From NCBI GenBank assembly GCA_038087875.1, contig CM075993.1, positions 5,520,001-5,584,000 on the forward strand: 64,000 nt of DNA, given 5' to 3'. The position numbers and the translations under genes were made by a program. The notes under the pieces were generated by a model. That model had not been told where the DNA came from, did not search any database, and was given only the letters and a program-made list of their open reading frames with translations. Shown here piece after piece: positions 14,971-52,845 of the stretch (position 1 is its first letter; every line of letters begins with the position of its first letter). The DNA is from Malacoraja senta. Lineage: Eukaryota.

Positions 14971-14999
14971 GGCAAAAAGTATAAAAGTTCAGTAAAGAC

Positions 15000-19209: not shown

Positions 19210-19273
19210 GGAGGGAGGTCCAATTCCTGCTCTGGGTGGGGGTCTGTTCCATGTGGATCTGTGGTGTGGGCAT

Positions 19274-19420
19274 GTCCGATCCGTGTTGTTGCGTGTGCTG
19301 GGCGTGTCTGATCCATGTTGTTGCGTGTGCTGGGCGTGTCCGATCCATGTGTGTGCGAGGCGTGTCCGATCAGTGTTGTTGCGTGTGCTGGGCGTGTCCG
19401 ATCCGTGTTGTTGCGTGTTG
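19274..19420 (+). repeat. ~32-bp minisatellite
   Basis: GTCCGATCCGTGTTGTTGCGTGTGCTGGGCGT, about 4.5 copies. Confidence 0.9.
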
Positions 19421-19423
19421 CAG

Positions 19424-19633
19424 GCATGTGGAAGCCGGGCGTGTTAGCCAGCCCCCCGGAGCGGGAGGTGGGGTGCGGGGCCTCGGAGCCGCCGCTGGAG
19501 AGCCAGCACGGGCCCCTCCCCAAAAACCCCGCCCTCTTCGTGGGTTACGCCTTCATCCTCACGGCGGCCACGCAGACCGACCGGCAGAGCAACAAGCCCC
19601 CCGCCCCGCACGGCACCACCGGCAGTGACGAGG
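19424..19633 (+). CDS. TP53BP1: TP53BP1 exon, BRCT1 start
   Basis: ..HGPLPKNPALFVGYAFILTAAT..GSDE; 210 nt. Confidence 0.96.
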
Positions 19634-20147
19634 GTGAGTACCGCCCTCCCACCTCCCCCTCCCCGACTACCTCCTCCCCACTCCCACAAACTCTACCTTC
19701 CTCCCTCCCCCAAGGTGTCGCCCACCCCCACATCCTGAGCCCCCTCACATATTCCCCACCTCCCACATCCTGACCCCCCCTCCCCGCATTCCTCTACACA
19801 AACTCCCCCTCTCCAACTCCAGTCTCCCCAGCCACCCCCACCACACCCTGGCACCCCCCCTCCCTCTCCCACATCCCTCTACACAAACTCCCACTCTCCC
19901 CCTCCAGACTCCCCCCGTCCCCAGTCCCCACCCTGACCTCCTCACACATTTCCCCCTCCCTCTACACAAACTCCCACTCTCCAACTCCAGTCTTCCCCTC
20001 CCCCCCTCCTCCAGACTCCAGATCACAACTGATCTATCTCTCCCTCCTAACCCCATTCTCCTGCCTTTCCCCCCCGTAACCCCTGACCCCCGCCCGTACT
20101 GGCCCCGTGGTGGATGTGACCGTGCCTGCGCCTGTGCTTCACCCCAG

Positions 20148-20242
20148 AGTACGTGGAGACGGCCGCCTACAACAAACAGTACACTGAGGCCCAGCTCCGA
20201 GCCGGAGGCGGATACATCCTCCAGGATTTCAACGAAGCCCAG
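20148..20242 (+). CDS. TP53BP1: TP53BP1 exon, BRCT1
   Basis: (E)YVETAAYNKQYTEAQLRAGGGYILQDFNEAQ; 95 nt. Confidence 0.97.
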
Positions 20243-21406
20243 GTAAGAGCCTCTTGCCCAGAGCAGGGGAATCGAGGACCGCTGGGCATGGGTTCAAGGT
20301 GAGGGGAGGGGGGGGGGGGGGGTAGATTTAATCGGAACCCAAGCGGTAACGTTGTTACACAAAGGGTAGTGTGCATATGGAACGAGTTGCCGGAGGAGGT
20401 AGTTGACTATCGCAACGTTTAAGAAATATCTCAGCAGGTACTTGGATAGGACAGGTTTGGAGGGATATGGGCCACATGCAGCCAGGTGGGACTAGTGTAG
20501 ATGGGTGGCGTGGGCCAAAACAGCATCTGGAGAGCGTGGATTGGTGATGCTTCGGGTCAGGACCCTTCTTCGGAAGTCATTGCCTTCTCGCACGTTATGA
20601 GGCCATGTTAGACCAGAATTAGGCCATTCGGCCCGTCGAGTCTGCTTCGCCATTCAAACATGGCTGATCTATCTCCCCCTATCTCCCGTCACCTTTAACG
20701 CTCTTCCTAATCAAGACCCTATCAATCTCCGCTTTAAAAATAATACCCACTGACTTGTCCTCCACCGCTGTCTGTGGCAATGAATCCCACAGATTCACCA
20801 CCCTCCCACTGAAGAAACTGCTCCTCATCTCCTTTTATTCTGAGGCTGTGGCCTCTGGTCCTAGACTCTCCCACTAGTGGAAACATCCTCTCCACATCCA
20901 CTCTGTCCAGGCCTTTATCTGTTAGCTAAGTTTCAAGTCCCACCTCATTCTTCTAAACTCCAGCGAGTACAGGCCCACTGCCGTCAAACGCTCACAGTAT
21001 GTTAACCCAATTACCCCTGGAATAACTCGTAAACCTACCCTACTCCACCATTCAATCATGGCTGATCTATCTCTCCCTCCCAACCCCATTCTCCTGCCTT
21101 CTCCCCATAACCCCTGACACCTGCACTAATCAAGAATCTATCTATCTCTGCCCTAAAAATATCCACTGACTTGGCCTCCACAGCCGTCCGTGGCAAAGAA
21201 TTTCACAGATTCACCTCCGTCTCTGACTAAAGAAAGTGAAAGTGAAGCTCAAGCTTCATTTGCCCCCCTGGGTGACACAAATAGAAACATAGAAAAATCG
21301 GTGCAGGAGTAGGTCATTCGGCCCTTCGAGCCAGCACCGCCATTCAATATGATCATGGCTGAACATCTAAAATCCTGCTTTTTCCCCATATCACTTGAAT
21401 CGTTAA

Positions 21407-21643
21407 AGGGCCAGTCCCACTTTCACGACCTCATTCACGACCTCTGCCGAGTTTGCCCTTGACTCATACTCGCAGCATGGTCGTCACGAGGTCGTAGGAG
21501 GTCGTAGGTAGGCCGTAGCAGGCCGTGATGCTAGTCGTAGGTACTCGTGGCATCAAGTAGGTCGGGGCGTTTTTCTATCCTGATGAAAAATGTCCACGAG
21601 TAAAAAAGGTTGTGAATTAGGTCGTGAAAGTGGGACAGGCCCT
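21407..21643. mobile_element. Harbinger-like MITE
   Basis: TIR AGGGCCAGTCCCACTTTCACGACC; TWA flanks; near-identical to 61547-61762. Confidence 0.75.
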
Positions 21644-21707
21644 TTAGCCCTAAGAGCTAAATCAAACTCTCCTGAAAGATTGTATCCCTGGGCATTCTGC
21701 TGAGTTA

Positions 21708-22038
21708 TAGCCCTGTCCCACTGTACGAATCCATTCCAAGAGCTCTCCCGAGTTTTTAAAAAAATCGAGCTCGTGGTAAGCACGGAGAATGAACGTAGCG
21801 GGTACGTCGGAGCTCGGGGACGTCTCTTAGCGGCTCGTAACGCTAACGGCAGGTACTCGGGAAGACTCGCTAACGGCAGGTAAGCACGGGAAGTCTGGTG
21901 AAGATTTTTCAACACGTTGGAAAATGTCCACGAGAGCCCCGAGTACCGACGAGCGGCCATTACCGTAAATCTCCGAGTTCGAATCAGGGCAAACTCGGGA
22001 GAGCTCTTGGAATGAACTCGTAACGTGGGACAGGGCTT
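21708..22038. mobile_element. Harbinger-like MITE
   Basis: ~45-bp TIRs AGCCCTGTCCCAC..CAAGAGCTCTCCCGAGTTT; TTA/TAA flanks. Confidence 0.75.
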
Positions 22039-22084
22039 TAAGAGCAGGGAGCTAATCCAGAATGTGTTGCTTGTTGCGTTTCAG

Positions 22085-22284
22085 TGCAAGGCAGCCTACC
22101 AGTGTGTGTTGATCGCAGACCAGCACTGTCGGACCAAGAAGTACTTTCTGTGCATTGCCAGCGGGGTGCCGTGTGTGTCGAACCTGTGGGTCCGAGACAG
22201 CTGCCTCTCCAACCAGCTGCAGCCCTACAATAACTACATGTTGCCAGCGGGCTACAGTGTGGAGGCTGACCGCATCCTGGAGTG
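22085..22284 (+). CDS. TP53BP1: TP53BP1 exon, BRCT1
   Basis: CKAAYQCVLIADQHCRTKKYFLCIASGVPCVSNLWVRDSC..RILE(W); 200 nt. Confidence 0.98.
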
Positions 22285-22294
22285 GTGAGATGCC

Positions 22295-23030
22295 CCCCCC
22301 TCACCCTGCCCCTCCCCTCACTCTGCCCCTCCCCCTCACCCTGCCCCTCCCCCTCACCCTGCCCCTCCCCCTCACTCTGCCCCTCCCCCTCACTCTGCCC
22401 CTCCCCCTCACTCTGCCCCTCCCCCTCACTCTGCCCCTCCCCCTCCCCCTCACTGCCCCTCCCCCTCACTCTGCCCCTCCCCCTCACACTGCCCCTCCCC
22501 CTCACTCTGCCCCTCCCCCTCACTCTGCCCCTCCCCCTCACTCTGCCCCTCCCCCTCACACTGCCCCTCCCCCTCACTCTGCCCCTCCCCCTCACACTGC
22601 CCCTCCCCCTCACTCTGCCCCCCCCCTCACTCTGCCCCTCCCCCTCACACTGCCCCTCCCCCTCACTCTGCCCCTCCCCCTCACTCTGCCCCTCCCCCTC
22701 ACTCTGCCCCTCCCCCTCACACTGCCCCTCCCCCTCACTCTGCCCCTCCCCCTCACTCTGCCCCTCCCCCTCACTCAGCCCCTCCCCCTCACTCGGCCCC
22801 TCCCCCTCACTCTGCCACTCACTCTGCCCCTCCCCCTCACTCTGCCCCTCCCCCTCACTCACTCTGCCCCTCCCCCCTCACTCTGCCCCTCCCCCTCCCT
22901 CACTCTGCCCCTCCCCCCTCACTCTGCCCCTCCCCCCCTCCCTCACTCTGTCCTCCCCCTCACTCTGCCCCTCCCCCCCTCACTCACTCTGCCCCTCCCC
23001 CCTCACTGCCCCTCCCCCCCCCACTCTGCC
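22295..23030 (+). repeat. 18-bp minisatellite (CTCTGCCCCTCCCCCTCA)n
   Basis: Regular tandem array, seen as 6-aa repeats in the ORF track. Confidence 0.95.
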
Positions 23031-23449
23031 CTGGGTGCCACCCACAGCGAGCCGCCCCGTGCCGTTACCGCGCTGCCTGTGACCACCCCCCCCCCCCGCT
23101 CGCCGCCCCTCCCCCATCCCGCCTGGTCTCAAACCTGGATCAGCGCCTCAATTAAACTGAACCCCGTCGATCTCTGCTCCTGATCCCCCCTCCTTCCTCA
23201 TGCACCCCTCTCACAAATTGACTTTTCTCTCTCCCCCTCTCCCCTTCCCCTCTTCCCCTCTCTCCCCCTCCCTCTCCTATTCCCTCCATTCTCCCCTCCA
23301 TTCTCTCTCTCTCTCCCTCTCTCCCTCTCCCCTCCTCTCCTCCTCTCTCCATTCTCTCTCTCTCTCTCTCTCTCTCTCCATTCTCTCTCTCTCTCTCTCT
23401 CTCCATTCTCTCTCTCTCACTCTCTCTCTCTCTCTCTCCCCCCCCCCAG

Positions 23450-23595
23450 GCACCCACGGACCAGCCCGTTCAAGAACATGAAGCTGCTGCTGGTGTCGGA
23501 CAAACAGGAGACCTTCCTCGGACTCTGGCCCGAGATCCTCATGATGGGAGGGGCGACGTCAGTGAGGCAGCACAACCCCGGCACGCACAGCAAGG
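23450..23595 (+). CDS. TP53BP1: TP53BP1 exon, BRCT2
   Basis: HPRTSPFKNMKLLLVSDKQETFLGLWPEILMMGGATSVRQHNPGTHSK; 146 nt. Confidence 0.97.
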
Positions 23596-23846
23596 GTGAG
23601 AGGGGGGTGGGGGTGTGGGATCCCTGGGGAGGAGGGGGGGGGGGGGAAGGGGGGAAGATCCCTGGGGGTGTGGGGGGGAAATCTCCCTTTTGCAGCAACA
23701 GAGACTCGGACAAATGCTCAAATACAAATGATACCCGAATCACACAAATCTTATCAAAGAAAGAATACAGAGACAGAACACGATAAAATGGAAGGTAGAC
23801 GAAAAGAGCTGGAGAAACTCAGCGGGTGCGGCAGCATCTATGGAGC

Positions 23847-24153
23847 GAAGGAAATAGGCAACGTTTCGGGCCCGAAACCCTGAAGGAAATAGGCAACGTT
23901 TGGGACCGAAACCCTGAAGGAAATAGGCAACGTTTCGGGCCGAAACCCAGAAGGAAATAGGCAACGTTTCGGGCCGAAACCCAGAAGGAAATAGGCAACG
24001 TTTGGGACCGAAACCCTGAAGGAAATAGGCAACGTTTGGGACCGAAACCCTGAAGGAAATAGGCAACGTTTCGGGCCGAAACCCGGAAGGAAATAGGCAA
24101 CGTTTCGGGCCGAAACCCGGAAGGAAATGGGCAACGTTTCGGGCCGAAACCCG
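23847..24153. repeat. Nine tandem 34-bp units derived from the Penelope terminal repeat
   Basis: GAAGGAAATAGGCAACGTTTCGGGCCGAAACCCN x9, inside an inverted pair of Penelope ends. Confidence 0.93.
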
Positions 24154-25542
24154 GAAGGGTTTCGTCCCGAAACGTTGCCTATTTCCTTCGCTCCATAGAT
24201 GCTGCTGCACCCGCTGAGTTTCTCCAGCACTTTTTGTCTCCCTTCCATTTTCCAGCATCTGCAGTTCCCTCTTGAACGATAAAAGAGAATTCCAATTCGT
24301 AGTAATGCATGCTGAACGTGTGGTGGGGTTTGCGGGGGAAGGTGGTGGGGGGTTGGGGTGGAGAGGGGAGGAAGGGACTCTTCCCCATCACATGCTCAAT
24401 GGGTGGCTAAATGGGGAGAGAATCCCGGAAATCGGAGATGCAAAGGGACTTGGGAGCGCTGGTGCAGGATTCCCAGAAAGTTAATTTGCAAGTCAAACCG
24501 GTTTCGGTAAAGAAGGCAAATGCAATTTATTTCACGAGGGCTTGTATACAAAGACAGGGGATGCAATGCTGAGGCTGGCCAGGCCGCATGTGGAATATTG
24601 GGAGCCATTTTGGGCCCCGTATCTGAGGAAGGATGTGCTGGCTCTGGTGGAGGGTCCAGAGGAGGTTTACAAGAACGATCCCAGCAATGAGTGGGTTAAC
24701 CTATGATGAGCGTTTGTCGGCACTGGGCCTGTACTCGCTGGAGTTTAGAAGGATGAGGTGGGGGGGGTGGGGGGGGACCTCATTGAAACGTCCCGAATAG
24801 AGGTCGCGGCCTTAGAATTAAAGCACGTTCTTTTAGGAAGGAGATGAGGAGAGATTTCTCTAGTCAGAGGGTGGTGAATCTGTGGAATTCTTTGCCACAG
24901 AAGGCTGTGGAGGCCAAGTCAGTGGATATTCCTAATAGATACATAGATACATAGAAAATAGGTGCAGGAGTAGAGGCCATTCGGCCCTTTGAGCCTGCAC
25001 CGCCATTCAATATGATCATGGCTGATCATCCAACTCAGTATCCCGTACCTGCCTTCTCTCCATACCCCCTGATCCCTTTAGCCACAAGGGAAGGTCTTGA
25101 GATAGATTAAGGCAGAGATAGATAGATTCTTGATTAGTACGGGCGTCGGGGGGTTATGGGGAGAAGGCAGGAGGATGGGGTTAGGAGGGAGAGATAGATC
25201 AGCCATGATTGGGTGATCAGCCAACCAAGATAGAGGGAGCTGCACTCTGTGTCAAAGGTCCGAAGTGATAGGAATTGAATTAGGCCATTCGGCCCATCAA
25301 GACTTGGTGGAGTAGACTTGATGGGCCGAATGGCCTAATTCAATTCCTATCACTTCTGACCTTTGTCACCGAGTGCAGCCCCCTCTACCCTGTCCTTGCC
25401 GACCCCCTCCTTGTACCAGATGGGTTCAGGGTTTGGTGCTGTCCCGAGGCAGGGGGTCACTGCGCAGGCGGGGGGGGGGGGGTGAGGGGGGGCAGACTGT
25501 CCACCCGGCATTGTTGACAGCACCATCCTTTCTCCCCCGCAG

Positions 25543-25730
25543 ATGTCCCGATGGGGGTCTTCGACCTGGTGGTGACGGACCCCTCGTGCCCCCCGTCGCT
25601 CCTCAAGTGTGCGGAGGCCCTGTCGGTGCCCGTGGTCTCGCAGGAGTGGGTCATCCAGAGCCTGGTGACTGGGCAGAGGGCCGGTCACCACAGCCACCCC
25701 ACCTACAAACACACCTACAAGCCCAGCTAA
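25543..25730 (+). CDS. TP53BP1: TP53BP1 last coding exon (BRCT2 end, stop TAA)
   Basis: (D)[61 protein letters not shown]. Confidence 0.98.
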
Positions 25731-33620: not shown

Positions 33621-34185
33621 AGTTGTTTGTGCTATACTGTACCTTATTAGAGGTGGGTGGGTGAGAATCACACCTGGAATGCTGTGGCAATTTTGGTCTT
33701 ACTTGTTGCCGCAAGTAAGAATTTCATTCGTCTATCTGGGACATATGACAATAAAACTCTTGACCATAAAACCTCTGTCAGAAGTGTGGCAAAAGAAATC
33801 ACAAGACCAATTCCAGGGGTGCCAAGTTTGCATTCTCTAGAATTTGAGAAGAATGGGAGATATCATTTAAGATTGCAAAGTCCAGCAGGGCTGAATGCAG
33901 ACAGGAAACGCCTTTGGCAAAGTCTAGAACCAGAAGCCTGTCTCCAAACTAGGCAAGGAACAAGCTTCTTCGGGGGAAATGGCAAAACTTTGGAATTATC
34001 TGCCTGAAGGCTGTTAAGAGTTCTCTCAAAACAATTTGGCAGGTTTACAGACCTTTTGAGCATTACGGGATATGGGTATGCGACGGGGAAATTAAACAGT
34101 GATTGATCCATAAACGATGCAGACTTTGCTACAAAAGTAAGTTGATTCACTTGTACAAAATGACATCGCTGTAGCTCGTTTTAGT

Positions 34186-34201
34186 GGCTCTTAAAAGAGC
34201 C
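34186..34201 (-). terminator. Histone-type 3' stem-loop (canonical loop) with HDE-like motif
   Basis: Minus strand AACAAC-GGCTCT-TTTA-AGAGCC-ACTAAAACGAGCTAC. Confidence 0.75.
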
Positions 34202-35372
34202 GTTGTTAGGCCCAGGGCGTGGATGGGGCTGAGGCAATAGGTACAGGAGTAGGCCATTTGGCCCTTCGAGCCAGCACCGCCATTCAATGTGATCATGGCT
34301 GATCAGTGGTGGGACATTGGAAGTCCAGTGGTGGGACTATGGAAGTCTTTGACCATGTTGGACAGCCAGGGGTCGGTGTCCTACCAGTGCCCGGCCCGGG
34401 TTAAACTGGCTGCCCCTCCGAGATCTTCGGTTTCCTCCCACATTCCAAAGGCGTACCTGTTTGTAGGTTAATTTAAAAATTGTCCTTAGTGTGTGTGGGA
34501 TAGCGTTAATATGCGGGGATCGCTGGTCGGCGCGGACCCGGTGGGCCGAAGGGCCTGTTTCCATGCTGTAACTAAACTAGGACTCGGCATCCTCAGGGTT
34601 AAACTCGCTGGTCGTCTCCGGCCAAGCGCTGGGGGCACAAGTCTGTCCTGAGGTCCTGTGCGATCTCCCGGCCACCGTGAGGGCGGTGCATTGTGGTAGC
34701 GCCTGGTCTCTCTACAAGGCATGGGACCATGGCTGCTGTGCTCGCCAGATGTTGGCCTTCTCTCCGCTCCACATGTTTGGCCCCGTCAACCACTCATTGA
34801 GACCGCCCGAGGTTGTAGCTATTTTCAGTGGCCCTGGCTTGTTGGGCCGACAGTGGGGGGGTTGAAGGGGCTTTCCCTGGATGCGATGGGACATCTGGAA
34901 AGCTCTGACCACATGATGTTGGGCCGCTTGCCGTGGTCCTCAGAGCTCGTCGACCCAATGGGACCACGACGGCCGGGCTCCGGCAGCGCAGGTCTGCTGC
35001 GGAGACAGAGAGGGGAGATCGCGGTGGCGCCAGATCTCTTTCGCTGCCGGGACCGGGACTGCGGCTGCTGCGCTCGCCAGCTACCTCTACCCCCCCACCT
35101 CCCCCACTGTTTGGCCCTCCTCCCATTCACTCCACGGTCCAGAGATGCACAGGTTTACAGGTTAATTGGCTGCTGTAAACCGTAAATTGTTCCGTGTGTG
35201 TGTGTGTGTGTGGGGGATATTGGTGGTGTACAAGGTGTTCGCTGGTCGGTGCGGAAACTGGACCTGTTCCCATGCTGCCAGGTCGCGTAAATGACGGCCA
35301 AGTGGGACAGGCCCTTAATGGTCCACCTTCATGAAGAGGAGGGGGGGAGGGGTGGTCGTACCTCATTTTACT

Positions 35373-35388
35373 GGCTCTAGAAAGAGCC
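35373..35388 (-). terminator. Histone-type 3' stem-loop (variant loop)
   Basis: CAAA-GGCTCT-TTCT-AGAGCC-AGTAAAATGAGGTAC. Confidence 0.65.
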
Positions 35389-35594
35389 TTTGAAGGGCCG
35401 AGGGTGAGGTTGGACGGCCAGGGGTCGGTGTCCTCCGAGCCCGGGTTAAGGTCACTGGCCCCGCGGGCCGAGCTCCGGGAGGTCAGTCCTCATTGATCTC
35501 CCGAGACACCGTGAGCGACGGGATCGCCGGACCTCCCTCAGGGCCAAACATCCAACGGACCAAGAGACTGCTTGAGGTTGTAGCTCTTTTCAAT

Positions 35595-35610
35595 GGCTCT
35601 TGAAAGAGCC
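35595..35610 (-). terminator. Histone-type 3' stem-loop with HDE-like motif
   Basis: GAAA-GGCTCT-TTCA-AGAGCC-ATTGAAAAGAGCTACAACCTC. Confidence 0.7.
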
Positions 35611-35834
35611 TTTCGTGGGGCTTCGTGCGGTCGTGATGGGACAGCGGTTGTCCACCTTGGTCGATGTCCCGAGTAATCTCCCGCTCACTGGGAAGACGGT
35701 GGCGGAGGATCTCCATCGAGAGCGGGTGGGGTGTGATCAATCTTCTTGCCTGGACTGTTGTGGTGGCCAGTTGTGGTGGCGGGAAACCTCGGCCTCCGGT
35801 CCAGCTGCCCTCCGGCTGCTTGGTTCGGTCCACC

Positions 35835-36600
35835 CCCACCCCAACCACCCCCCCCCTTCCCCCAACCCAACCTCTCAAACCCAAACCCAACCACCCCCCT
35901 CCCCAACCTCTCAAACTCAACCACCTCTCCCAAACCCAACCACCCCCCTCCCACCTCTCAAACCCAAACATCTCCCAAAACCCAACCACCCCCCCCAAAC
36001 CCAACCTCTCAAATCCAAACCTCTCCCAAACTCAACCACCCCCCTCCCACCTCTCAAACCCAAACATCTCCCAAAACCCAACCACCCCACCCCCAAACCC
36101 AACCTCTCAAATCCAAACCTCTCCCAAACTCAACCACTCCACCCCCCCAAACCCAACCTCTCCCAAACCCAAACACCCCCCACCCCCAACCTCTCAAATC
36201 CAAACCTCTCCCAAACTCAACCACCCCCCCCCAAACCCAACCTCTCCCAAACTCAACCACTCCCCACCCCCAAACCCAACCTCTCCCAAACCCAAACACC
36301 CCCCCAACCCAACATCTCAAACCCATTCCTTCCCCAAACCCAACCACCCCCCCCCCAAACCCAACCTCTCCCAAACCCAAACACCCCCCCAACCCAACAT
36401 CTCAAACCCATTCCTTCCCCAAACCCAACCACCCCCCCCCAAACCCAACCTCTCCCAAACCCAAACACCCCCCCAACCCAACATCTCAAACCCATTCCTT
36501 CCCCAAACCCAAACACCCCCCCAACCCAACATCTCAAACCCATTGCTTCCCCAAACCCAAACACCCACCCACACCCCCCCCCACACACACACACACACAC
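35835..36600. repeat. CCCAAA/CCCAAC-rich higher-order tandem repeat (G-rich on minus)
   Basis: Blocks of ~85 bp such as AAACCCAACCTCTCCCAAACCCAAACACCCCCCCAACCCAACATCTCAAACCCATTCC repeated. Confidence 0.9.
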
Positions 36601-36670
36601 CACTATTGACTCCACGGTCCAGGGAACGAAGAACATCTACAGAGAACAGGAGGTTGTAGCTCTTCACAGC

Positions 36671-36686
36671 GGCTCTTGAAAGAGCC
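36671..36686 (-). terminator. Histone-type 3' stem-loop with HDE-like motif
   Basis: CCCAACAAA-GGCTCT-TTCA-AGAGCC-GCTGTGAAGAGCTACAACCTC. Confidence 0.7.
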
Positions 36687-36943
36687 TTTGTTGGGCTTGA
36701 GGTGGGGGGAGAGAAGGTGAGGTAAGGGCAGGTGAGGATGAAGGGGTAAATGAGGGTTGAGGATGGCGGAGAGGTTACGGAGTGGTGGGAGATAAGGTTA
36801 CATGTAGGGTTGGTCATGGTGAGGGGGGTGGGGGGGGTTGGTGAAGGAGGGTGAGCGGGACATCCCCCGGCCGGCCGTCCCACCACCATCCGTCCCGCAC
36901 GACGCCGCCCCCGCTTGTCCACGCTGTCCCTCCACCGCTGCCC

Positions 36944-36999
36944 CTTATATACCCGCCCACTGACCCGCGCTCCGGCCAATCACCTGGACAATGACGCAA
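36944..36999 (-). promoter_or_regulatory. Pol II core promoter (TATA, GC box, CCAAT, CRE-like)
   Basis: TATATAAG 36951-36944, GGGCGG 36958-36953, CCAAT 36976-36980, TGACGCAA 36992-36999 in a CpG-rich patch. Confidence 0.7.
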
Positions 37000-37229
37000 C
37001 CAACCCTCTGGCGTCCTTTGTCTGAGCCCCACCGTGAAAAGCGCGCCAACCCCAGAAGCAGAGACACATTCCTTCTCTCCAGAGTTGTCCCACCCGCTGA
37101 GTTACTGACTCCAGCTTTTTTTTGTCATTCTATGCAAAACAATTAAAACACCTGCAGTTTCTTGTGTCTACAACATCTCTCACTTAGTGTCATTCACTGA
37201 TCCATAGCTTCCTACAGCAGCAGAGTCAT

Positions 37230-43170: not shown

Positions 43171-44307
43171 TAGCACTAGCACTATCCTACACACACTAGG
43201 GATTTTGATCATTTTGACACTTGGTAAAATTTTACAATTTTAACAAACCAATTAACCCAATACCTCTGCTCAGTTCGCATTAGCCAACCTGATCTCTCCG
43301 ACCCGGTGGCTCAGCACTTCAACTCCTCCCCCCCATTCCGAATCCGACCTTTCTGTCCTGAGCCTCCTCCATGGCCAGGGTGAGTCCCACCGTAAATTGG
43401 AGCAGCACCACCTCATATTTCGCTTGGGTGGTTCACACCCCGGTGGTATGAACATTGACTTCTCCAATTTCTTGCTTTCCCCCTCCTTCCCCTCCCCTTC
43501 CCAGCTCTTCCACAGCCTACTGTCTCCGCCTCTTCCTTTCTTCTTCCCGCCCCACCCCCACATCAGTCTGAAGAAGGGTCTCGACCCGAAACGTCACCTA
43601 TTCCTTCGCTCCATAGATGCTGCCTCACCCGCTGAGTTTCTCCAGCACTTTTGTCAACCTGCAGTCAGTAAGTCAGTCCATTATAACCAAACTCCATTAC
43701 AATGGGATCCGTTTATAAAAAGGAATTACTGTACTGTATAACTGCAGTGCTGAATCCTACCAGACTGCATTTAATCCCAATTATCTAACAGCCCATAGAC
43801 TTGTACAGTACAGAAACAAATCTTTCATTCAGCCAACTACAAAATGTAGTTACAGATGTTGAAAGTCCATAAGAAGATCAGAGAAATGCTATCAGAAGAT
43901 CAGGCAGCAAGCATCCATAGAGAGAAAAACTGACCCTAAACATCGACCATTTCTCTCTGCACGGATGCTGCCTGATTCTAGACACAAAATGCTGGAGGAA
44001 CTCAGCGGGACAGGCAGCATCTCTGGAGAGAAAGAATGGGTGACGTTTCGGGCCGAGACCCTTCTTCAGATCTCGAGATGGGGCTCGACCTGAAATGTCA
44101 CCTTCTCTCCAGAGATGCTGGCTGTCCCGCCGAGTTACTCCAGCATTTTGTGTCTATCTTCGGTTTAAACCAGCATCTGCAGTTCCTTCCTACACATGCT
44201 GCCTGATTCTTCCAGCACTTTGTGTTTTGGAGGCAGGAATTGAACCCCACTGCATATTTAACCAGCGAGTTGCATTGACGTGGTACAGAGCCCACTGGCC
44301 ATCTTAC

Positions 44308-44447
44308 CTTCCGAGCGTGCCTCCTGACTGCGTGTAGTACTTGTTGTAGTCCAATCTCAGCAGGAGCTGGGCCAGGTCGGAGTTAATCTGGTGATTGCGA
44401 ACGCTCGACAGGATCTTGAAGAGGAGGGACGACTGGCGACTGAAACC
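44308..44447 (-). CDS. TUBGCP4: TUBGCP4 exon
   Basis: GFSRQSSLLFKILSSVRNHQINSDLAQLLLRLDYNKYYTQSGGTLG; 140 nt. Confidence 0.98.
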
Positions 44448-44976
44448 CTGGGAACCGCCCAAAACAACAAGCACATCAGCCTCGGTCAGCAGAAGGATCA
44501 GCCGTGCCTGTGAATGGAACATGCCCTCGCCTGCACAAGTAACAGTGGTGCAGCGGTAGATTTGCTGCCTTTACAGTGCCAGAGACCTGCATTCGATCCT
44601 GACCTCGGGTGCTGCCTGTATGGAGTTTGTACGTTCTCCCTGTGACTGCATGGGTTTTCTCTGGGTGCTCCGGTTTCCTCCCACACTACAAAGACGTGTA
44701 GGTTAATCGGCTCCGTAAATTGTCCCCAGTGTGTAGAATGGAACTAGTGTAAGGGTGATTGTTGGTCGATGCCGACCTGGTGGGCTGAAGGACCAGTTTC
44801 CACTCAGATTTTCTAAACTAAACTAAAACAGTAAAAACATTCAGCCACATCAACGCCAAGGTCATGCAGCTAACTAGAGCCGAGATCCTGACTTCGGGAG
44901 CCATCTGTGCGGAGTTTGCACGTTCTCCCTGTGAGGACATGTGTTTCTCCCGAGTGCTGTGGTTTCCTCCCACTTA

Positions 44977-45215
44977 AGGTCCTGTCCCATTTGGAGATTT
45001 TTTTGGCGTCTGCCGGCATAATTGACTGACGTATCAGGTCACCGAAACTTCGCAGCGTGACGCATCGGTGACGCGGCCTGATGACGTATTGACGCGCGGT
45101 GTTTTTTTCGAGTGTCGCAACGTTTTTTCTTGTCGTCTCTGGATTTTGAAATGTTCAAAATCTTTTGGCGACACTGATATGATGTCGAAAAAAATCGCCA
45201 AGTGGGACAGGCCCG
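44977..45215. mobile_element. Harbinger-like MITE
   Basis: TTA target duplication; inverted relative of 49973-50205. Confidence 0.8.
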
Positions 45216-45506
45216 TTAGAGATGTGTGGACTGATTCCTTTATGGGCTGCTATATATTGCTGCTAGTGTGGTGTTGAGTCATAGAAGGGAATTGATGAGA
45301 ATAAGCGGGAAGGTTAAAATATAGGATGAATGTATTGGTACATGGTCTATTATTGTTTCATGTACAGAGAAACAGTGAAAGCTTCATTTGCGTCTCATCC
45401 ATGTACATGAGTGATGTACAATCAAATCATGTACACGCACAACAGGTAGGGCAAAGAAAAAAATATTGTTCCTTTTGACAGGAAGTGCAGGTTGGTCACT
45501 ACTTAC

Positions 45507-45623
45507 CGTTACAAGAACGCCTAGTTGTGGAGCTCCTCGGTCATCCATGGGACCAGGATTCTGACTAACCAGGGAGCAGAAGTTGTGGCATAATTCCAGG
45601 ATCTCGGTCAGGCAGTGGAACAC
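45507..45623 (-). CDS. TUBGCP4: TUBGCP4 exon
   Basis: VFHCLTEILELCHNFCSLVSQNPGPMDDRGAPQLGVLVT; 117 nt. Confidence 0.97.
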
Positions 45624-46097
45624 CTGCAGAGGAAGGAAACAAACCTGATCAGACATCGTTGATTCATTGAAAAGCTACGCTGGGTCAGTATTAACTGGTG
45701 TGTGTGTGTGCACACAGACATATACATATGTACAATTCAGTACACACCGTGCGCGTGCGTGTGCGTGTCTCTGCGTGTACTGCAGGTGGTGATTTACAAC
45801 GAAGATAAACACAAAACGCTGGAGTAACTCAGCAGGTCACATATGTTTCTGTGTATATATATATATATATATATAAAACGTTTAGAGATTTAGAGAAGCC
45901 AATTACCTACAAGCCCACACGTCTTTGGTATGCGGGGGGAAGCCGGAGCACCCGGAGGAAACACACGCAGGTCATGGGGAGAACATGCAAACTCCACACA
46001 GACAGCGCCCAAGGTCAGGATCGAACCCTGAGAGGCAGCAGCTCTGCCAGCTGTGCCACCCCATGATTCCCGTGCCATGAAAGGGAGGTGTACTCAC

Positions 46098-46232
46098 CGG
46101 TTTGAGCAGGATGAACGACTGGGCCAGCAGGTTACTCAGGAAGTGATCGTGAGCCAGTCGTATGCTTTCAAAGTCCCGGATGGAGTTTATCCGCTGGAGG
46201 AGCTGAGAAAACTGAGACTCGAGGACATCCAC
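46098..46232 (-). CDS. TUBGCP4: TUBGCP4 exon
   Basis: VDVLESQFSQLLQRINSIRDFESIRLAHDHFLSNLLAQSFILLKP; 135 nt. Confidence 0.98.
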
Positions 46233-47776
46233 CTGGAATGGCACAAGGCGGCGTTCAGCATCCGAGGGGAAGAAACTCTGCAAGTACCACACTTGAGGGG
46301 CTTGGATCCCACCAGATGCTAGTGTGCTCTGGGCTAATGCTCACTTCAACTCAATTGCTGCAGATGGCTTTGCAAGGTTGTCATTTTTGCAAGTTTGAAG
46401 TCATAGCTTGGTTCAACATCCTCAGACCCCTGTGTATTGCTGGAGCAAGTAGCTAGTTGGCCATTCTCATCGGCTAGATTCGCACTAACTCTTGCACTTA
46501 GTTCATAAGTAATAGGAGCAGAATTAGGCCATTCGGCCCATCAAGTCTACTCCGCCATTCAATCATGGACGATCTATCTTTCCCTTTTAACCGTATTCTC
46601 CTGTTTTCTACCCATAACCCCTGATACCTGTAATAATCAAGAATATTGTACCCTTTATCTATCTCCTGTGGATGGTTGGATTGTATTGATGTATGGTCTT
46701 GTCTTTGACTGGATCGCATGCAAACAAATCCTTTTCACTGTACCTCGGTACACAAGGCAACAATAAACCCAAACTAAGCTTCCACTGGCCACAGTTGCCA
46801 GTAACTTTGGGCTGTGACTTGCATGAAATTCAGGCTCAGTGAAGACAAGGACGCGGATGAATGGTGGGACTGCCAATTTACCTCCGTAACCAGTGAGACT
46901 TAAGAGTGGACAGGGAACATGTATGGATACAATTTATGTAGAAAGACATTTTAAAGATACCTGAAAAACAAAAGAGGGAGAGGGCAGAAACACTCAAGGG
47001 TAAAGAAGTCAGCGAATGCAAGCAATGTACTAAACAAATACTTTGCATCAATATTTACCACGGAGAAGAACATGGAGATCAGTGTCGGGTAGACTTATAT
47101 GCTAGGACAATTTAAGAGCAAGGAGGTGGTAGTGCTGGGTCTTTAGAAATGCATGATGGCAGAAGGGTCCTCAGGGCCTGATGGGATCTATTATTATTAT
47201 TAAACTTTATTTCAGACTCAAGGTCCAGACAAGAGACGACATTACATACAATACATGTAAAAACACCACATCCCAGGTTATTGAGAGAGGCAAGAGAGGA
47301 GATTGCTGAGGCCTTGACAAATATTTTTGTATCCACTCTATCCATGGTGCGCGATTCTGGAGGACTGGAGAATAGCTAGTGTTGTCCCTTTGTTCAAGAA
47401 GGAAATAGGGACAATCTTAAAAGCCTCGCGTCAGTGGTGGCAAAGACATTGGAGAAGATGGTTTGGTTTAGGATTTACTCATGTTTAGAAGAGAGTAGCA
47501 GTGAAAAGGTGTCATTCTGGCTGAAGATGTGTAGCTAGTGAAGATATATAAATACTTGGATGGGTTGGCAGGTTAAGTTTGCAGGTGTGATGACAATTGG
47601 AGGAGTTGCAGACTGTGAGGAAGGCTGGCAAACGGCACAGCGGGATGTAGATCAGTTACAGAAATGGCAGATGGAGTTTCATCTGAGGGAATTGTGAGAT
47701 GTTGCATTTTGGGAGGTCAAATGTATGGGGTGGTCAAATGTATGATGGCAGAATCTTTAACGGCATCGAGCTGACC

Positions 47777-47855
47777 AACTCGTTGGTCTAGGGGTATGAT
47801 TCTCACTTTGGGTGCAAGAGGTCTCAGGTCCCAGGTTCAAATCCCAGAAGAGCCC
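47777..47855 (+). pseudogene. tRNA-Pro(TGG) pseudogene
   Basis: CTCGTTGGTCTAGGGGTATGATTCTCACTTTGGGTGCAAGAGGT..GGTTCAAATCCC..GAGCCC matches vertebrate tRNA-Pro, with a 7-nt duplication and CpG decay. Confidence 0.85.
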
Positions 47856-48441
47856 TTGTTTGCATGGATAAGACAGGTTTAGAGGGATATGGGCCAAACG
47901 GGGGCAAATGCTTGGATGGGGCATCTTGGTTAGCATAGACGTGTTGGGGTAAAGAGCCTGTTTCTGTGCTGTATAACTCTATTACTGCTCTTTGTGGCAG
48001 ATTTCAACCATCTCTTCAAGTGCTTACTGACCTCTCCTGAACAACCTGTCTCTCACTTTATGTTACGTGTACCTATACTGGATATCGATCCGCTCCGACA
48101 CCGATGTTTAGATTTCAGTTTATTATCGTCACGTGTACCAGCGGACAGTGAATGGCTATGTTTGGCAGGCTATCCAAACCTATCAGACACACAATAATAG
48201 CTACAATCAGTTCGAGCTTGAGTGCAATAGGTAGAGCAAAGGGTAAGATACAGAGTGCAGAATATAGTTCTCAGCATTGTAGAGCGTCAGTTCTAGAGAC
48301 AAACTCCAATGTCTACAATGGGGTAGAGGTGAATTAGGCAGTACCCTAGCTTATGGAAGGACTGTTCAAAAGCCTGATAACTGAGGGGAAGAAGCTGTTC
48401 CTGGGAATGGAGAAATGGTTTGATATCCTCACAACTCCTTA

Positions 48442-48769
48442 TGGGCCTGTCCCACTTGGCGATTTTTTAGGCAACTGCCAGCGACTGTCATAGTCGTAGC
48501 AGGTCGCCGAAAAACCGGCGACAACCTACGTCATCCTGGCGACAACCTACGGCAGCACCGGCGTCAGGAGAAGTCAAGCGACGCTCATTGGCGACAAACC
48601 CACTGTCGGCGAAATTTTTTCAACGTGTTGAAAATTTAGCGGCAACCAGAAAGACGCTACGACTTTTTGCGCAACTGAGGAGACGACTCCCGGCGACCAC
48701 TGGCGAACATGTGGCGACAAACTAGTCGCCTGTAGTTGCCTAAAAAATCACCTAAGTGGGACAGGCCCG
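48442..48769. mobile_element. Harbinger-like MITE
   Basis: TTA target duplication; TIR GGGCCTGTCCCACTT. Confidence 0.8.
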
Positions 48770-48877
48770 TTAGTTTGGACATCCCAGAGAATAAAAGGCC
48801 AGTGGTTGCCTCTCATAGTCTACACCCCGAGGCCAGGTTGCACGTGATGCTGAAGGTGACAGTTTATTCCAGGTTAC

Positions 48878-49055
48878 CTGTAGGTAGTACTGCAGGTTGT
48901 CCACAAGGAACGCCATGTGGTTCCTCACTCTCCACTTGACCACGTCCGTCTGGTTGTATTTGAGGCGCTTGCGCTGCATCTGCACGGCCCAGCAGTGCTG
49001 CAGCTCCGCCTGCACCCTCCGCACGCTCAGCAGGTACTTGAACACAATGTTGTAC
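48878..49055 (-). CDS. TUBGCP4: TUBGCP4 exon
   Basis: YNIVFKYLLSVRRVQAELQHCWAVQMQRKRLKYNQTDVVKWRVRNHMAFLVDNLQYYLQ; 178 nt. Confidence 0.98.
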
Positions 49056-49098
49056 CTGACGGAGGGAATGGGGTGAGAAACAATGTTGAAAACTGGAA

Positions 49099-49667
49099 AG
49101 GCTCTGTCTCACGGTGTTGCGGTCATCGGCGGTGAAGCGCGGCTTCGCCTGTAGAGGGGACCGCACGGCAACGGCGAGAGCGCCGAGCCTATGCCACGGG
49201 AGCGCCGCACGGGTGCTGCGCTGGGGCCGAGTGATTTAAATACGGCTGGTCCCACGAGCTTGCGGTAAGTAAAAGAAAAGGGCGGGCCGACTGCGATGAC
49301 GTCATTTTGGATCTGCGGGGCTGTGGCGGCGGCCGTCCTGATCGCAGCGCTGTAGCGGTGGCTATGGCGGCGGCCGTGCCGTACACGTGCCTCACTGGCG
49401 GAGGCTGTGGCGGTGCAAGTTCGACGCACGGCGCTCGAGCCACACTGGCGGCGGCCGTGCCGCACTCGTGCCTCACTGGCGGAGGCTGTGCGGTAGGGAC
49501 ATATTTTTGAACAGTGTTGGTTTTATTTTAGCACCGTGCGGTGTTGGGAACAACGCCGCACGGCCCCGGAATTGTGCGTTTGACCGAATGCGCGGTCTAT
49601 GGCGGCCCAGGAGCGGTAGATTCTTCCTGTTTCGCCGCCAATGACCGCAGACTCGTGAGACAGGCCT
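49099..49667. mobile_element. CpG-rich non-autonomous TIR element
   Basis: Imperfect TIRs GGCTCTGTCTCACG..TGCGGTCATCGGCGG / CCGCCAATGACCGCA..CGTGAGACAGGCC; internal ~44-bp direct repeat. Confidence 0.7.
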
Positions 49668-49972
49668 TGAACATAACCTGAGCTACCAGTCTCTCCCATC
49701 CACAAGCGCGGCACAGTGATAGTGCAACTGCCTTACTGCGCCAGAAATCCAGGTTCGATCCCGACTACGGGTGCTATCTGTACAGAGTTTGTACATTCTC
49801 CCTGTGACTGCGTGGGTTTTCTCCGATTTTCTCCCACACTCCAAAGACGCACAGGTTTGCAGGTTAACTGGCTTCAGTAAAATTGTAAATTGTCCCTGGT
49901 GTGTCGGATAGTGTTAGTGTACGGGGTGATCGCTGGTTGGCGCAGACTGGGTGGGCAGAATGGCCTGTTTCT

Positions 49973-50205
49973 GTGCCTGTCCCACTTGCCGATTTTTTCG
50001 GTGACTGCCGGCGTCATTGACTGACGTATCAGGGTCGCCGAAAGATTTTGAACATTTCAAAATCCAGCGGCGACAAAAAAAATGTTGCGACACTTGAGGA
50101 AACACCACGCGTCAATACGTCATCACGCCGCGTCACGCCGGTGACCTGATACGTCAGTGAATGATGCCGGCAGTCGCCGAAAAAATCGCCAAGTGGGACA
50201 GGCCC
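49973..50205. mobile_element. Harbinger-like MITE inserted in a SINE tail
   Basis: GCCTGTCCCACTTG / CAAGTGGGACAGGC TIRs. Confidence 0.75.
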
Positions 50206-50753
50206 ATATCTCTAAAGTCTAAAGGGCACAGATTCAATAGACAATAGACAATAGGTACAGGAGTAGGCCATTTGGCCCTTCGAGCCAGCACCGCCATTCA
50301 ATGTGATCATGGCTGATCATCCCCTGATTCGAACCTGAATGAGGCAAAGCTGCATCAACTCTTCTTTGCCTCTCCACAGATGCGGACTAACCTGCTGAGT
50401 CTTCCAGCTACTGTGCTGTGTTTGATTCACTGCCTGTACTGAGTGGTTCCTCTCAACTAGAGCACGGTACAAACTATAACACTGGCCAAGCTTGGAAGGA
50501 GAAGGAAGTCATGGTGGAAGGCACATGAATCAATGCTGGAAGAAGCTGGGCACAGAGTATCCACCAGGCACTCAACCACAAGACATGCTTGCCAACCTTG
50601 ATCAGCTTGGTCAGATACACTTGCGGGATTCCCAGCTTGGTTGAATACTGGATAGTTGCCAATCATGAGGATTGTGACCAACTTTACGGCTGTGCAGAAG
50701 GAGGAAAAGCAAGAGGGGAAAATAAACAGCAGCAATTCGTACGGTAAACTTAC

Positions 50754-50883
50754 TTTTCCAGCACAGCGGGGCTGAACAAGATGTGCAAAGGCCACTGCAC
50801 TTTGTACGAGAGACCCAGAGCTGACCAGCCTGACGTCGGGGCTTCACGAGGGGAAGCTGATGCATCACGACTCTGTGTTGAAT
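50754..50883 (-). CDS. TUBGCP4: TUBGCP4 exon
   Basis: (D)STQSRDASASPREAPTSGWSALGLSYKVQWPLHILFSPAVLE(K); 130 nt. Confidence 0.95.
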
Positions 50884-52264
50884 CTACATGTGAATGGGGT
50901 TGGGAGGAACATGCAAAAAGAAAGGGAAAAATCTATAATGACAACCAAAACTAGGCAAGCGGAATGAAAGCACAACAATATGCATCAGACAGGTTTAGAG
51001 GGATATGGGTCAAATGCAGGCAGGTGGGCCTAGTGTAGATGGGACATGTTGGTTGGTGTGGACAAGTTAGGCCGAAGGGCCTTTTTCCACACTGTATGAC
51101 TCTATGACCCTAATTAAATGTCTTGGGGGATGAGCAGAGGCGAGCATTAATAACCTATTGTTGTAAAAACTCTTCTGGGTCACCGATAACCTCTGAGGAA
51201 GGGAAGCGTTGACCATAACTGCTCGCTTACACGCAACACCAAACATTGATGACAGGGCAACAAATCAGCACAGCCTTCTCAGAGGCAATTATGAACAGAC
51301 ATTAAACATGGCTTACAACATAGCGGGTAGGAAGGAACTGCAAATGCTGGTTTAAACCGAAGATCGACACAAAATGCTGGAGTGACTCAGCGGGACAGAC
51401 AGCAATCTGAATCTGAAGAAGGGTCTCGACCCAAAACGTCACTTATTCCTTCTATCAAGAGATGCTGCCTGTCCCGCTGAGTTACCCCAGCATTTTGTGT
51501 CTATCATGGCTTACAACACAACCGTGTTCCACGAGAGAATATAAAAAAAATTAACAACCAACCCTCTTACATAATATCATAACTAATAATAACAATAATA
51601 ATATATTTTATTGTCATTGCACATAGGTGCAACGAGATTTGGTATTCCGCTTCCATCCGATGTCATAACTTAAACAACTAATAACATTTAGATAAAATTT
51701 AAACCTCCCTGTACAAGGTATGTGCCGTTTTAACTACAGTATTCAGTAAATTTGGTCGGAAATAGTTTCTTGGTTCAGTTGACACACAACAAATGTAAAA
51801 AAATAGTGCATTGATATTTATGTCAAGGTTACTGGCTGATTTATTATTGACACCTGCAGAAATATACACACAAGTGTAGAGAACCTCCAGAACAGGCACA
51901 GTGTGGATTAAACACCAACTGCATCAAGGAGATGCCACTAGCCCTAAAAGACAAGGATGCAAGGGATAGTTCCACCTTCCTTGCTTCATTGCAGCTTGCG
52001 TAACTTTTTTTTCTGGGGCAGGTAGGCAATTTGTGCCAGTCAAACAACACATGCTGTGGCTCAGGGCTGCGTTCAACGCACACAGTGGACAAAATGCGTA
52101 GGAAGGAACCGCAGATGCTGGTTTAAATCGAAGATAGACGCAAATTGCAGGAGTAACTCAGCGGGACGGGCAGCATCTCTGGAGCGAAGGAAAGGGATTG
52201 GGCAAGAACGGTGAATCACCACCAGCGACACTTGTTGCTGTGTTCTCTACAACTAGTGGCACAG

Positions 52265-52845
52265 AAGGCGGATGATATACTTGCCTTCATTGCTCGGGGC
52301 ATTGCATGTATGAGTCTGGAAGTACTGGTGCAGCTCTGAAGGCCGCATTCGAGTGCAGGTCTGGTCGCCCCATTACAGGAAAGATATAGAGGGTGTGAAG
52401 GAGGTTTACTAGAACGCTGACTGGATTAGAGGGTTTCACCTGCAAGAAGAGGTTGGATAAACTTGGAACACTGGAGGTTGAGGGGAGACTTTATAGAAGT
52501 ATATAAAATTCTGAGAGGCATAGATAGGGTAGACAGTCAGAATCTTTTTCCCAGGGAGGAAATGTCCAACATATCTGGAATAGCAATAAGGTGAGAGGGG
52601 GGAAACTTTAATGGAGATGTGGGGAGCAAGTTTTTTTTACACAGAGAGTGGTGGGGCCTGGAATGCATTAGCAGGGGTGGTGGTGGAGGCAGATATGATG
52701 GCGGCATTTATGAGACTGTTAGATAGGCACATGGAAGTGCAGGAATAGAGGGATATGGATCATGTACATGCAGATTAGATCAGTTTAACGGCATCATGTC
52801 GGCTCAAACATCGTGGGCTGAAGGGCCTGTTCCTTTGCTGTACAG
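52265..52845 (+). mobile_element. Old degenerate CR1 fragment (similar relics about 24393-25220, 47000-47980, 55600-56070, 56450-57530)
   Basis: Recognisable CR1 3' motifs with many indels. Confidence 0.7.

What the first reader, a model, noticed from the sequence alone, without database searches (positions are those of the whole stretch)
34160..37000. Promoter-driven array of histone 3' stem-loop/HDE cassettes with no histone gene
Seen: on minus, a TATA promoter (start about 36920) is followed by GGCTCT-N4-AGAGCC hairpins at 36686, 35610, 35388 and 34201, plus a broken one near 34835. The intact hairpins are preceded by A/C-rich bases, and each cassette is followed by an AAAGAGCTAC-like motif; no histone ORF exists in any frame. 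Known: this 6-bp stem/4-nt loop plus purine-rich HDE is the SLBP/U7 snRNP signal, essentially restricted to replication-dependent histone mRNAs. Only the most distal loop (TTTA) has the canonical UYUN; the others (TTCA, TTCT) lack U3. The HDE lies only ~4-8 nt from the stem, shorter than usual. Inference: a candidate non-polyadenylated ncRNA or small-ORF gene using histone-type 3' ends, with nested products of ~0.25, 1.3, 1.5 and 2.7 kb, or an SLBP/U7 decoy. A decayed histone cluster is the alternative.
Basis: partly seen in the sequence, partly recalled or inferred. Interest (0 to 1): 0.85.

Follow-up and report, generated by a model that had tools for sequence, protein, structure and literature searches.

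The report
Histone-derived RNA bait arrays in skates
A promoter is followed by a row of ruined histone H3 gene copies whose message-end signals stayed intact but sit 11 bases too close together, a layout repeated at several places in this skate-like genome; it is likely a non-coding RNA that would hold the histone-message cutting machinery without being cut normally, though no transcript has been seen.

Summary
The feature is real. Minus strand: CCAAT/GC/TATA promoter, four perfect histone stem-loops (chance 0.24) and a broken fifth. (1) The spacers are decayed histone H3 coding sequence, about 72-75% identical to modern H3, with many indels. (2) The downstream element (HDE) starts 6 nt after the stem, against 17 nt in 21 of 24 scorable histone-cluster ends. 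The 11 nt where U7/CPSF73 measures its cut are missing. Related arrays lie on C17, C16 and C11, a pair on C1, and dozens of dispersed, often decayed copies elsewhere; pieces occur in three other organisms. HDE cores not used to find the cassettes are 106/112 conserved against a 72-79% baseline (P 1e-9 to 6e-6), which points to selection. Best reading (0.45): an H3-derived non-coding RNA that binds U7 snRNP, probably SLBP too, and cannot be cut at the normal site. Nested normal 3' ends are unlikely. No RNA evidence; skate U7 not found. The scan has non-histone coding genes with such ends on other DNA, but not this arrangement.

The parts
37041..37049 (-). E2F-like site TTGGCGCGC (consensus recalled; weak)
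   Evidence: Sequence. Similar octamers lie near the TATA boxes of paralogues L015, L164 and L028.
36944..36980 (-). Pol II core promoter: reverse CCAAT 36980-36976, GC box 36958-36953, TATATAAG 36951-36944; start inferred near 36920
   Evidence: The same CCAAT-GC-TATA order occurs in L015, L164, L109, L028, L104, L105 and L031; CpG observed/expected is 0.99.
36650..36698 (-). Cassette 1: CCAACAAA, stem-loop 36686-36671 (loop TTCA), 5-nt tail, HDE 36665-36650
   Evidence: (71.4 bits; part of the model's training set)
35859..36601 (.). G-rich simple tandem repeat inserted between units; not shared with paralogues
35757..35832 (-). Decayed H3 5' coding sequence (H3 nt 2-74), start codon lost; the frame reads RTKQ...TGG...QLAT
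   Evidence: (E 0.037)
35574..35622 (-). Cassette 2: stem-loop 35610-35595 (loop TTCA), 5-nt tail, HDE AAAGAGCTACAACCTC 35589-35574
35419..35546 (-). Decayed H3 coding sequence (about H3 nt 140-332)
   Evidence: E 0.086 for 35504-35419
35352..35400 (-). Cassette 3: stem-loop 35388-35373 (loop TTCT), 5-nt tail, weaker HDE (6 of 8 core bases)
34870..34996 (-). Decayed H3 3' coding sequence (H3 nt 242-403)
   Evidence: E 3.8e-7
34809..34849 (-). Cassette 4: stem largely deleted; tail and HDE kept in register. The one HDE core mismatch (34821) is the consensus base in three other organisms.
34594..34729 (-). Decayed H3 coding sequence (H3 nt 132-304)
   Evidence: E 6.6e-10
34340..34415 (-). Decayed H3 3' coding sequence (H3 nt 285-377), cut off from the preceding part by a common short repeat at about 34416-34573
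   Evidence: (E 0.9, weak)
34165..34213 (-). Cassette 5: stem-loop 34201-34186 (canonical loop TTTA), 5-nt tail, HDE 7 of 8 core bases
   Evidence: (Histone3 33.3 bits)

Best explanation
The locus is a tandem row of decayed histone H3 copies behind one Pol II-type promoter, and it is likely a non-coding RNA gene whose stem-loop/HDE cassettes would bind U7 snRNP, and probably SLBP, without being cut at the normal site. Shown: H3 origin; loss of coding capacity; HDE 11 nt closer to the stem than in this genome's histone genes; cassettes and their spacing better kept than the H3 sequence around them; the same layout at several loci. [quoted passage not shown] By the fixed-distance rule the cut would fall at the loop/3'-arm junction inside the hairpin, so processing is predicted to stall. 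A multivalent RNA made from a CCAAT/E2F-type promoter would then hold or concentrate U7 snRNP and SLBP, as a buffer or scaffold for histone mRNA processing. Transcription, binding and any effect on histone mRNA are untested.
For: Spacing: the HDE core starts at +17 in 21 of 24 scorable histone-cluster ends (+15 twice, +18 once; 6 more of the 30 scored low, none at +6). It starts at +6 in 10 of 10 cassettes from the window, L015 and L012. It is also at +6 in 4 of 4 cassettes of L164; that locus was found by a hairpin-only pattern. Origin: H3-profile hits in all families, none in reversed controls or the rest of the window. Selection: HDE cores in cassettes not found by an HDE pattern match 106 of 112 bases, against 72-79% for H3 remnants, including non-CpG and purine-only baselines (P 6e-10 to 6e-6). 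Indels fall in 3 of 19 cassettes where about 66% are expected (P 1e-5; 0.017 at half the rate). The 5-nt tail drifts in sequence (43-57% between families) while its length holds. Four of 6 stem pairs show changes on both sides (2 of 500 shuffles reach this). CpG sites in the window's H3 remnants are not decayed (75% against 75% for non-CpG; 43% at C1), as expected of unmethylated DNA. Pieces of the array are present in organisms B, C and D. Fixed-distance cleavage is described in PMC7026596.
Against: Many dispersed copies carry damaged cassettes: a C-A mismatch in the stem, or a lost HDE in 9 of the 17 promoter-linked first hairpins. Three of 4 stems at L164, 2 of 5 at L015 and 1 of 5 here are damaged. 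Stems not found by a hairpin pattern are only 85/108 identical to the consensus, not above baseline; pairing is kept only marginally more often than expected (41/48 against 37, P 0.047). Three of the four intact window loops have C instead of the conserved U at loop position 3 (bioRxiv 10.64898/2026.10.14.759114), so SLBP binding may be weak. Predicted pairing with human-type U7 is moderate: cassette median -11.4 kcal/mol, histone ends -13.3, random -6.75; cassettes 3-5 only -5 to -9. The C1 pair has no matching promoter and looks methylated, yet its cassettes are intact. The covariation rests on few, related copies in an alignment fitted to the model. Fully decayed sister arrays would have been missed by my motif searches.
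Confidence: 0.45

Rival explanations
1. Relic: tandem H3 pseudogene arrays whose cassettes were under selection in the past, or only look conserved because of how they were found, and which do nothing now.
For: Clear H3 pseudogene origin. Damaged cassettes in every multi-unit array and in most dispersed copies. The 11-nt deletion could be one inherited event. Stem sequence in cassettes not found by a hairpin pattern is at baseline.
Against: Units within the window array are old (62-72% identity to each other with many gaps), yet 4 of 5 stems are perfect and 5 of 5 HDEs are in register. The HDE core excess survives CpG and purine controls. The promoter order is kept across families whose flanks no longer align.
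Confidence: 0.2
2. Self-cutting unit: U7 docks and CPSF73 cuts 11 nt upstream of the HDE, at the loop/3'-arm junction. This would destroy the hairpin and give unstable pieces or early termination, making the locus a U7-sensing switch.
For: The ruler position falls right after loop base 4. Loops with C at position 3 put a CA there and are found only in this family: 7 of 10 non-cluster hits and 0 of 37 hits on histone-cluster contigs. The HDE is better kept than the stem. Strong U7 pairing can allow cleavage without SLBP (PMC7026596 passage). The CA preference of CPSF73 is recalled.
Against: The stem is predicted stable in most cassettes (pair probability 0.94-0.98 in 6 of 10 folded). Cho et al. 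1995 report that shortening this distance interferes with processing (title only). The C1 and dispersed copies keep TTTA loops.
Confidence: 0.15
3. One reading: non-polyadenylated RNAs ending just after each hairpin. This would need a variant U7 or another nuclease that tolerates the short spacing.
For: Hairpin, A/C-rich 5' flank and a 5-nt tail are exactly a mature histone end. There is no minus-strand AATAAA between 33240 and 38618. Altering U7 length can move the cut.
Against: No linker is left between the cut and the U7 duplex. A 3-nt U7 deletion shifted the cut only partly. The genome's histone genes use +17, so its ordinary U7 machinery is tuned to normal spacing.
Confidence: 0.1
4. DNA-level or co-transcriptional element, for example a brake on read-through between the converging TUBGCP4 and TP53BP1 genes, rather than a free RNA.
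For: The array lies about 7 kb below the last TUBGCP4 exon detected, on the same strand, facing the end of TP53BP1.
Against: Paralogues sit in unrelated surroundings and carry their own promoters.
Confidence: 0.07

Closest known systems
Replication-dependent histone H3 genes (stem-loop Rfam RF00032 + HDE; SLBP/U7 snRNP/CPSF73)
   Same: 6-bp/4-nt hairpin, A/C-rich 5' flank, AAAGAGCT core, H3-derived sequence, TATA promoter
   Different: No intact ORF; several 3' ends behind one promoter; HDE 11 nt closer; loop U3 often C; GC-box/E2F-type promoter unlike the 21 histone upstream regions examined; outside the histone clusters
Human LTR12 lincRNAs with repeated HDE-like motifs repressed by U7 through NF-Y (PMC11417402)
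   Same: Non-coding Pol II units with CCAAT promoters and several U7-complementary motifs
   Different: Those are retroviral LTRs; in the passages read no histone hairpin is described beside the motif. Here each HDE is fixed to a hairpin and derives from H3.
NORAD-type decoy lncRNAs built of repeated protein-binding units (recalled, no call)
   Same: Repeated units in which only the binding element is conserved; proposed titration of an RNA-binding factor
   Different: Different target (U7 snRNP/SLBP), pseudogene origin, expression unproven
Y3** RNA (PMC4604341, abstract only)
   Same: Non-coding RNA acting on histone 3' processing
   Different: A small Y RNA that binds CPSF and promotes processing; not a substrate mimic
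Engineered histone pre-mRNAs with a shortened stem-to-HDE distance (Cho, Scharl, Steitz 1995; title only)
   Same: Same geometry change; the title states that it interferes with processing
   Different: Laboratory mutants; here a natural, conserved, multi-copy version

Membership tests
Replication-dependent histone gene | Intact intronless histone ORF | tested here: not met
   No Pfam histone hit; H3 remnants with frameshifts and a lost start codon
Replication-dependent histone gene | Conserved 16-nt stem-loop | tested here: met
   Four perfect stems; Histone3 33.3 bits against gathering 34 for cassette 5
Replication-dependent histone gene | U at loop position 3 | tested here: not met
   Met in 1 of 4 intact window loops
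Replication-dependent histone gene | HDE at the normal distance (core at +15 to +18 in this genome) | tested here: not met
   Core at +6 in all five cassettes
Replication-dependent histone gene | HDE complementary to the species' U7 5' end | tested here: inconclusive
   U7 gene not found; moderate pairing with human-type U7
Replication-dependent histone gene | U7-dependent cleavage 4-5 nt after the stem | not testable with these tools
   No RNA holder listed
Neutral histone pseudogene array | All parts decay at the same rate | tested here: not met
   HDE core 95% against 72-79%; fewer indels in cassettes
Decoy lncRNA with repeated binding units | Repeated conserved elements in non-conserved spacers | tested here: met
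Decoy lncRNA with repeated binding units | Transcribed, binds and titrates its factor | not testable with these tools
   No RNA or binding data available
Transposable element | Transposase/RT ORF, terminal repeats or common ends | tested here: inconclusive
   No Pfam hit in the long ORFs of cassette-bearing loci tested, apart from one LINE-type endonuclease ORF in flanking locus L013. Homology ends of dispersed copies vary. Target-site duplications were not examined. The window array shares only cassettes and common short repeats with the dispersed copies.

The most novel reading that the evidence does not exclude
Skates carry a family of S-phase non-coding RNAs, recycled from histone H3 genes, whose tandem cleavage-proof histone ends capture U7 snRNP and SLBP. 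They would be a natural inhibitor or scaffold of histone mRNA 3' processing, and cellular RNAs other than histone messages built to load the whole histone end-processing complex.
Probability: 0.35. Interest if true: 0.88.

Novelty: new variant of a known kind. Interest (0 to 1): 0.72.

Why it matters
In human cells SLBP was found bound to no RNAs other than histone messages (PMC4604434), and the stem-loop/HDE pair is treated as exclusive to histone genes. A conserved non-coding family that keeps both signals but removes exactly the linker needed for cutting would be a natural substrate mimic. It would point to an RNA-based control of histone supply or of histone-locus-body assembly, and would show pseudogene 3' ends being recycled into a regulator. 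The geometry makes sharp, cheap predictions: read-through, a cut at the loop/arm junction, or a cut after the stem.

Tried and rejected
U7 gene: not found by the Rfam family search (uninformative control), by Rfam scans and motif search of 30 kb around C12orf57, or by five pattern searches with candidate inspection (114/115). The best candidate, L126, has only a U7-like 5' half (18.9 bits against 34) and was not accepted. Expression: no RNA holder listed for 34600-35850; run X13 (kind unknown) covered only common repeats; neither is evidence. The tables were cut (56 substitution rows and 19 indel rows not shown), so cassette-versus-spacer conservation between species, and whether stem 4 is whole in relatives, could not be scored. 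Protein searches with the H3-like window frame and the longest L015 frame found nothing. Viral contigs: 0 matches. Metagenomes: 2 matches, both chance hits between bacterial ORFs. A Helitron 3' end was considered (hairpin then CTAG in dispersed copies) and rejected because homology runs on for hundreds of bases. A U7-like RNA on the opposite strand was rejected: no Sm site follows, and the promoters are directional. The first part (remnants against H3) was out of register and was redone. One search's ungapped HDE score misread two +7 cassettes; one search corrects this, drops one as a duplicate and adds window cassette 4. The bacterial promoter scan is irrelevant. Papers not held: Cho 1995, Scharl 1994, Yang 2009, Sun 2020.
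Full report
Setting. The window is G000:C17:5520001-5584000 of a 1.94-Gb genome. The array lies between the 3' ends of TP53BP1 (plus strand; Tudor and BRCT exons) and TUBGCP4 (minus strand). The best TUBGCP4 match belongs to a cluster whose named members are skates, so I call the genome skate-like. The histone clusters are on other contigs (C21, C1545, C4152).

Observation. All read in the histone sense on the minus strand, below a reverse CCAAT, a GC box and a TATA box. No ORF among the 134 window frames scanned hits a histone family.

Spacing. Of 30 stem-loops taken from histone-cluster loci, 24 had a scorable AAAGAGCT-type core: it starts at +17 after the stem in 21, +15 in 2 and +18 in 1. 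The six low scorers were best placed at +8 to +18. In the window all five cassettes have it at +6. [quoted passage not shown] The 11 nt that normally separate the cut from the HDE are therefore exactly what is absent. One modern H3 end reads ACTAATCCGGCAGTAG before AAAGAG; dispersed cassettes read ACTAG. By the ruler, a cut would land between loop base 4 and the 3' arm (inference). A 1995 paper's title says that shortening this distance interferes with processing; I saw only the title in two reference lists. PMC1635294 states that the distance is critical.

Origin. H3 coding DNA from this genome aligns to the spacers. A DNA profile of H3 genes finds remnants at 35832-35757, 35504-35419, 34996-34870 (E 4e-7), 34729-34594 (E 7e-10) and 34415-34340, all in cassette orientation. 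It finds none in reversed controls or in the other 60 kb of the window. Pooled remnants are 72% identical to modern H3, with 0.03 indel events per base; window units are 62-72% identical to each other. The array is an old tandem of H3 copies, not a histone-free invention. No H3 trace was detected before cassette 1.

Family. A hairpin-plus-HDE pattern gave 38 hits and a looser one 46. Loci examined fall into these groups. L015 (C17:1.37 Mb): promoter plus five cassettes. L164 (C16:5.66 Mb): promoter plus four, found by a hairpin-only pattern, all at +6. L109 (C11:27.79 Mb): promoter plus five, partly a local duplication. L012 (C1:355.2 Mb): two cassettes among H3 remnants, no matching promoter. 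Dispersed copies within multi-kilobase duplications, many near contig ends, with 24 promoter hits; their spacing is +6 in 13, +8 in 4 and +9 in 10 of 27, and many are damaged. Between families the flanks fall to about 25-30% ungapped identity, and no ORF is shared between TATA and the first hairpin in six copies compared. E2F-like octamers lie near the TATA in four families (consensus recalled) and in 1 of 21 histone upstream regions (the patterns differed slightly between calls).

Selection. Between families, H3 remnants are 58% identical with 0.26 gap columns per base, stems 94-100%, the 14-nt HDE 80-90% and the 5-nt tail 43-57%. Stems and part of the HDE were search criteria, so I also scored 14 cassettes not found through an HDE pattern: core 106/112, 14-mer 173/196. 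Baselines were 72% (all sites), 74-75% (non-CpG, including invariant first and second codon positions) and 79% (purines only); P for the core runs from 6e-10 to 6e-6. Indels occur in 3 of 19 cassettes against about two thirds expected. Four of six stem pairs show changes on both sides among 29 aligned copies. Limits: several of the 14 were detected with a model that includes the HDE; copies are related; the alignment was fitted to the structure; stems not found by a hairpin pattern are no better than baseline in sequence (85/108) and only marginally so in pairing (P 0.047). The HDE and its spacing are the best-kept features. CpG sites in the window's remnants have not decayed (49/65), unlike C1 (23/54), which fits an unmethylated locus but does not show transcription.

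Other organisms. Contigs from runs of organisms B, C and D align over parts of 34544-35842 with roughly 6-8% substitutions plus gaps. All three carry the consensus HDE base at 34821, where the window's cassette 4 deviates. In organism C the listed indels across cassettes 2 and 3 avoid the hairpins and HDE, but the lists were cut and this alone is not significant. The array is thus older than these lineages.

Partners. The U7 gene was not found (see Tried and rejected); PMC5054213 (first quarter read) notes how fast U7 evolves. With a human-type guide (motif from PMC11417402), 17 cassettes pair at a median -11.4 kcal/mol, 30 histone-cluster ends at -13.3 and random 40-mers at -6.75. C at loop position 3 occurs in 7 of 10 non-cluster hairpins and 0 of 37 on cluster contigs; U there is described as conserved for SLBP binding (bioRxiv 10.64898/2026.10.14.759114, passages). 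SLBP binding is therefore less certain than U7 binding.

Mechanism. I commit to a multivalent, poorly cleavable bait or scaffold RNA (0.45). The rivals are a relic (0.2), U7 cutting inside the hairpin (0.15), normal-type ends (0.1) and a DNA-level element (0.07). Origin, geometry and conservation are shown; transcription, binding, lack of cleavage and function are inferred.

Comparison and novelty. It fails membership of the histone genes (no ORF, wrong spacing) and of neutral pseudogenes (uneven decay). It would work like a repeat-unit decoy RNA (NORAD, recalled) and resembles the U7-bound LTR12 lincRNAs (PMC11417402, abstract and passages). Ten full-text searches listed no paper on such arrays. 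The library lacks most subscription journals, I read listings rather than all hits, and no supplements were read; genome annotations may list these loci as unnamed lncRNAs. PMC9756948, PMC9744234 and PMC10388802 were seen as passages only, PMC4604341 as abstract only. The scan's own notes hold non-histone protein-coding genes with histone-type ends in other genomes and nothing matching this sequence or genome.

Verdict. A real and unusual family with good sequence evidence of selection on an altered histone 3' signal, and no direct evidence of expression. Interest 0.72.

Noticed in passing
L164:1736-6730 (G000:C16:5.662-5.667 Mb, minus): Sister array: CCAAT/GC/TATA promoter, four cassettes at +6 and the best-scoring H3 remnant seen (E 1.5e-29); three of four stems carry one mismatch.
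   Followed up: yes
L109:1429-5310 (G000:C11:27.79 Mb, minus): Promoter plus five cassettes; three have strongly changed but still paired stems that keep the second G-C pair, two of them with +7 spacing.
   Followed up: partly
L017-L033, L104-L112, L146-L163: Dispersed multi-kilobase duplicated family, often near contig ends, carrying the same promoter type (several E2F-like sites, two CCAAT boxes) 0.7-20 kb upstream of cassettes, with some H3 pieces inverted; how it spreads was not determined.
   Followed up: partly
L012:146-315 (G000:C1:355.236 Mb): Two intact cassettes 121 nt apart in AT-rich, CpG-decayed DNA with no matching promoter; why they are kept is unexplained.
   Followed up: partly
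L005:1501 and L006:1516 (G000:C18:10.05-10.06 Mb): Two divergent H2B variants outside the clusters, each with a perfect stem-loop but no clear HDE in the next 40 nt.
   Followed up: no
window 12194-25727 (+) and 44307-62934 (-): TP53BP1 and TUBGCP4 exons in tail-to-tail arrangement around the array.
   Followed up: partly
L090 and L094 (G000:C4152): Two histone-cluster 3' ends (L090 is an H2B gene) have GCTACA in their downstream element, like the cassettes; a hint that skate U7 may read UGUAGC at that place.
   Followed up: partly
L126:1494-1529 (G000:C2:117.4 Mb, minus): U7-like guide and Sm-site sequence without the model's 3' hairpin (18.9 bits); probably chance or a fragment.
   Followed up: partly
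window 6499-7563, 11436-12183, 14245-14953, 22296-23447: Long simple and C-rich repeats in the TP53BP1 half of the window, with a strong C-over-G skew on the plus strand.
   Followed up: no
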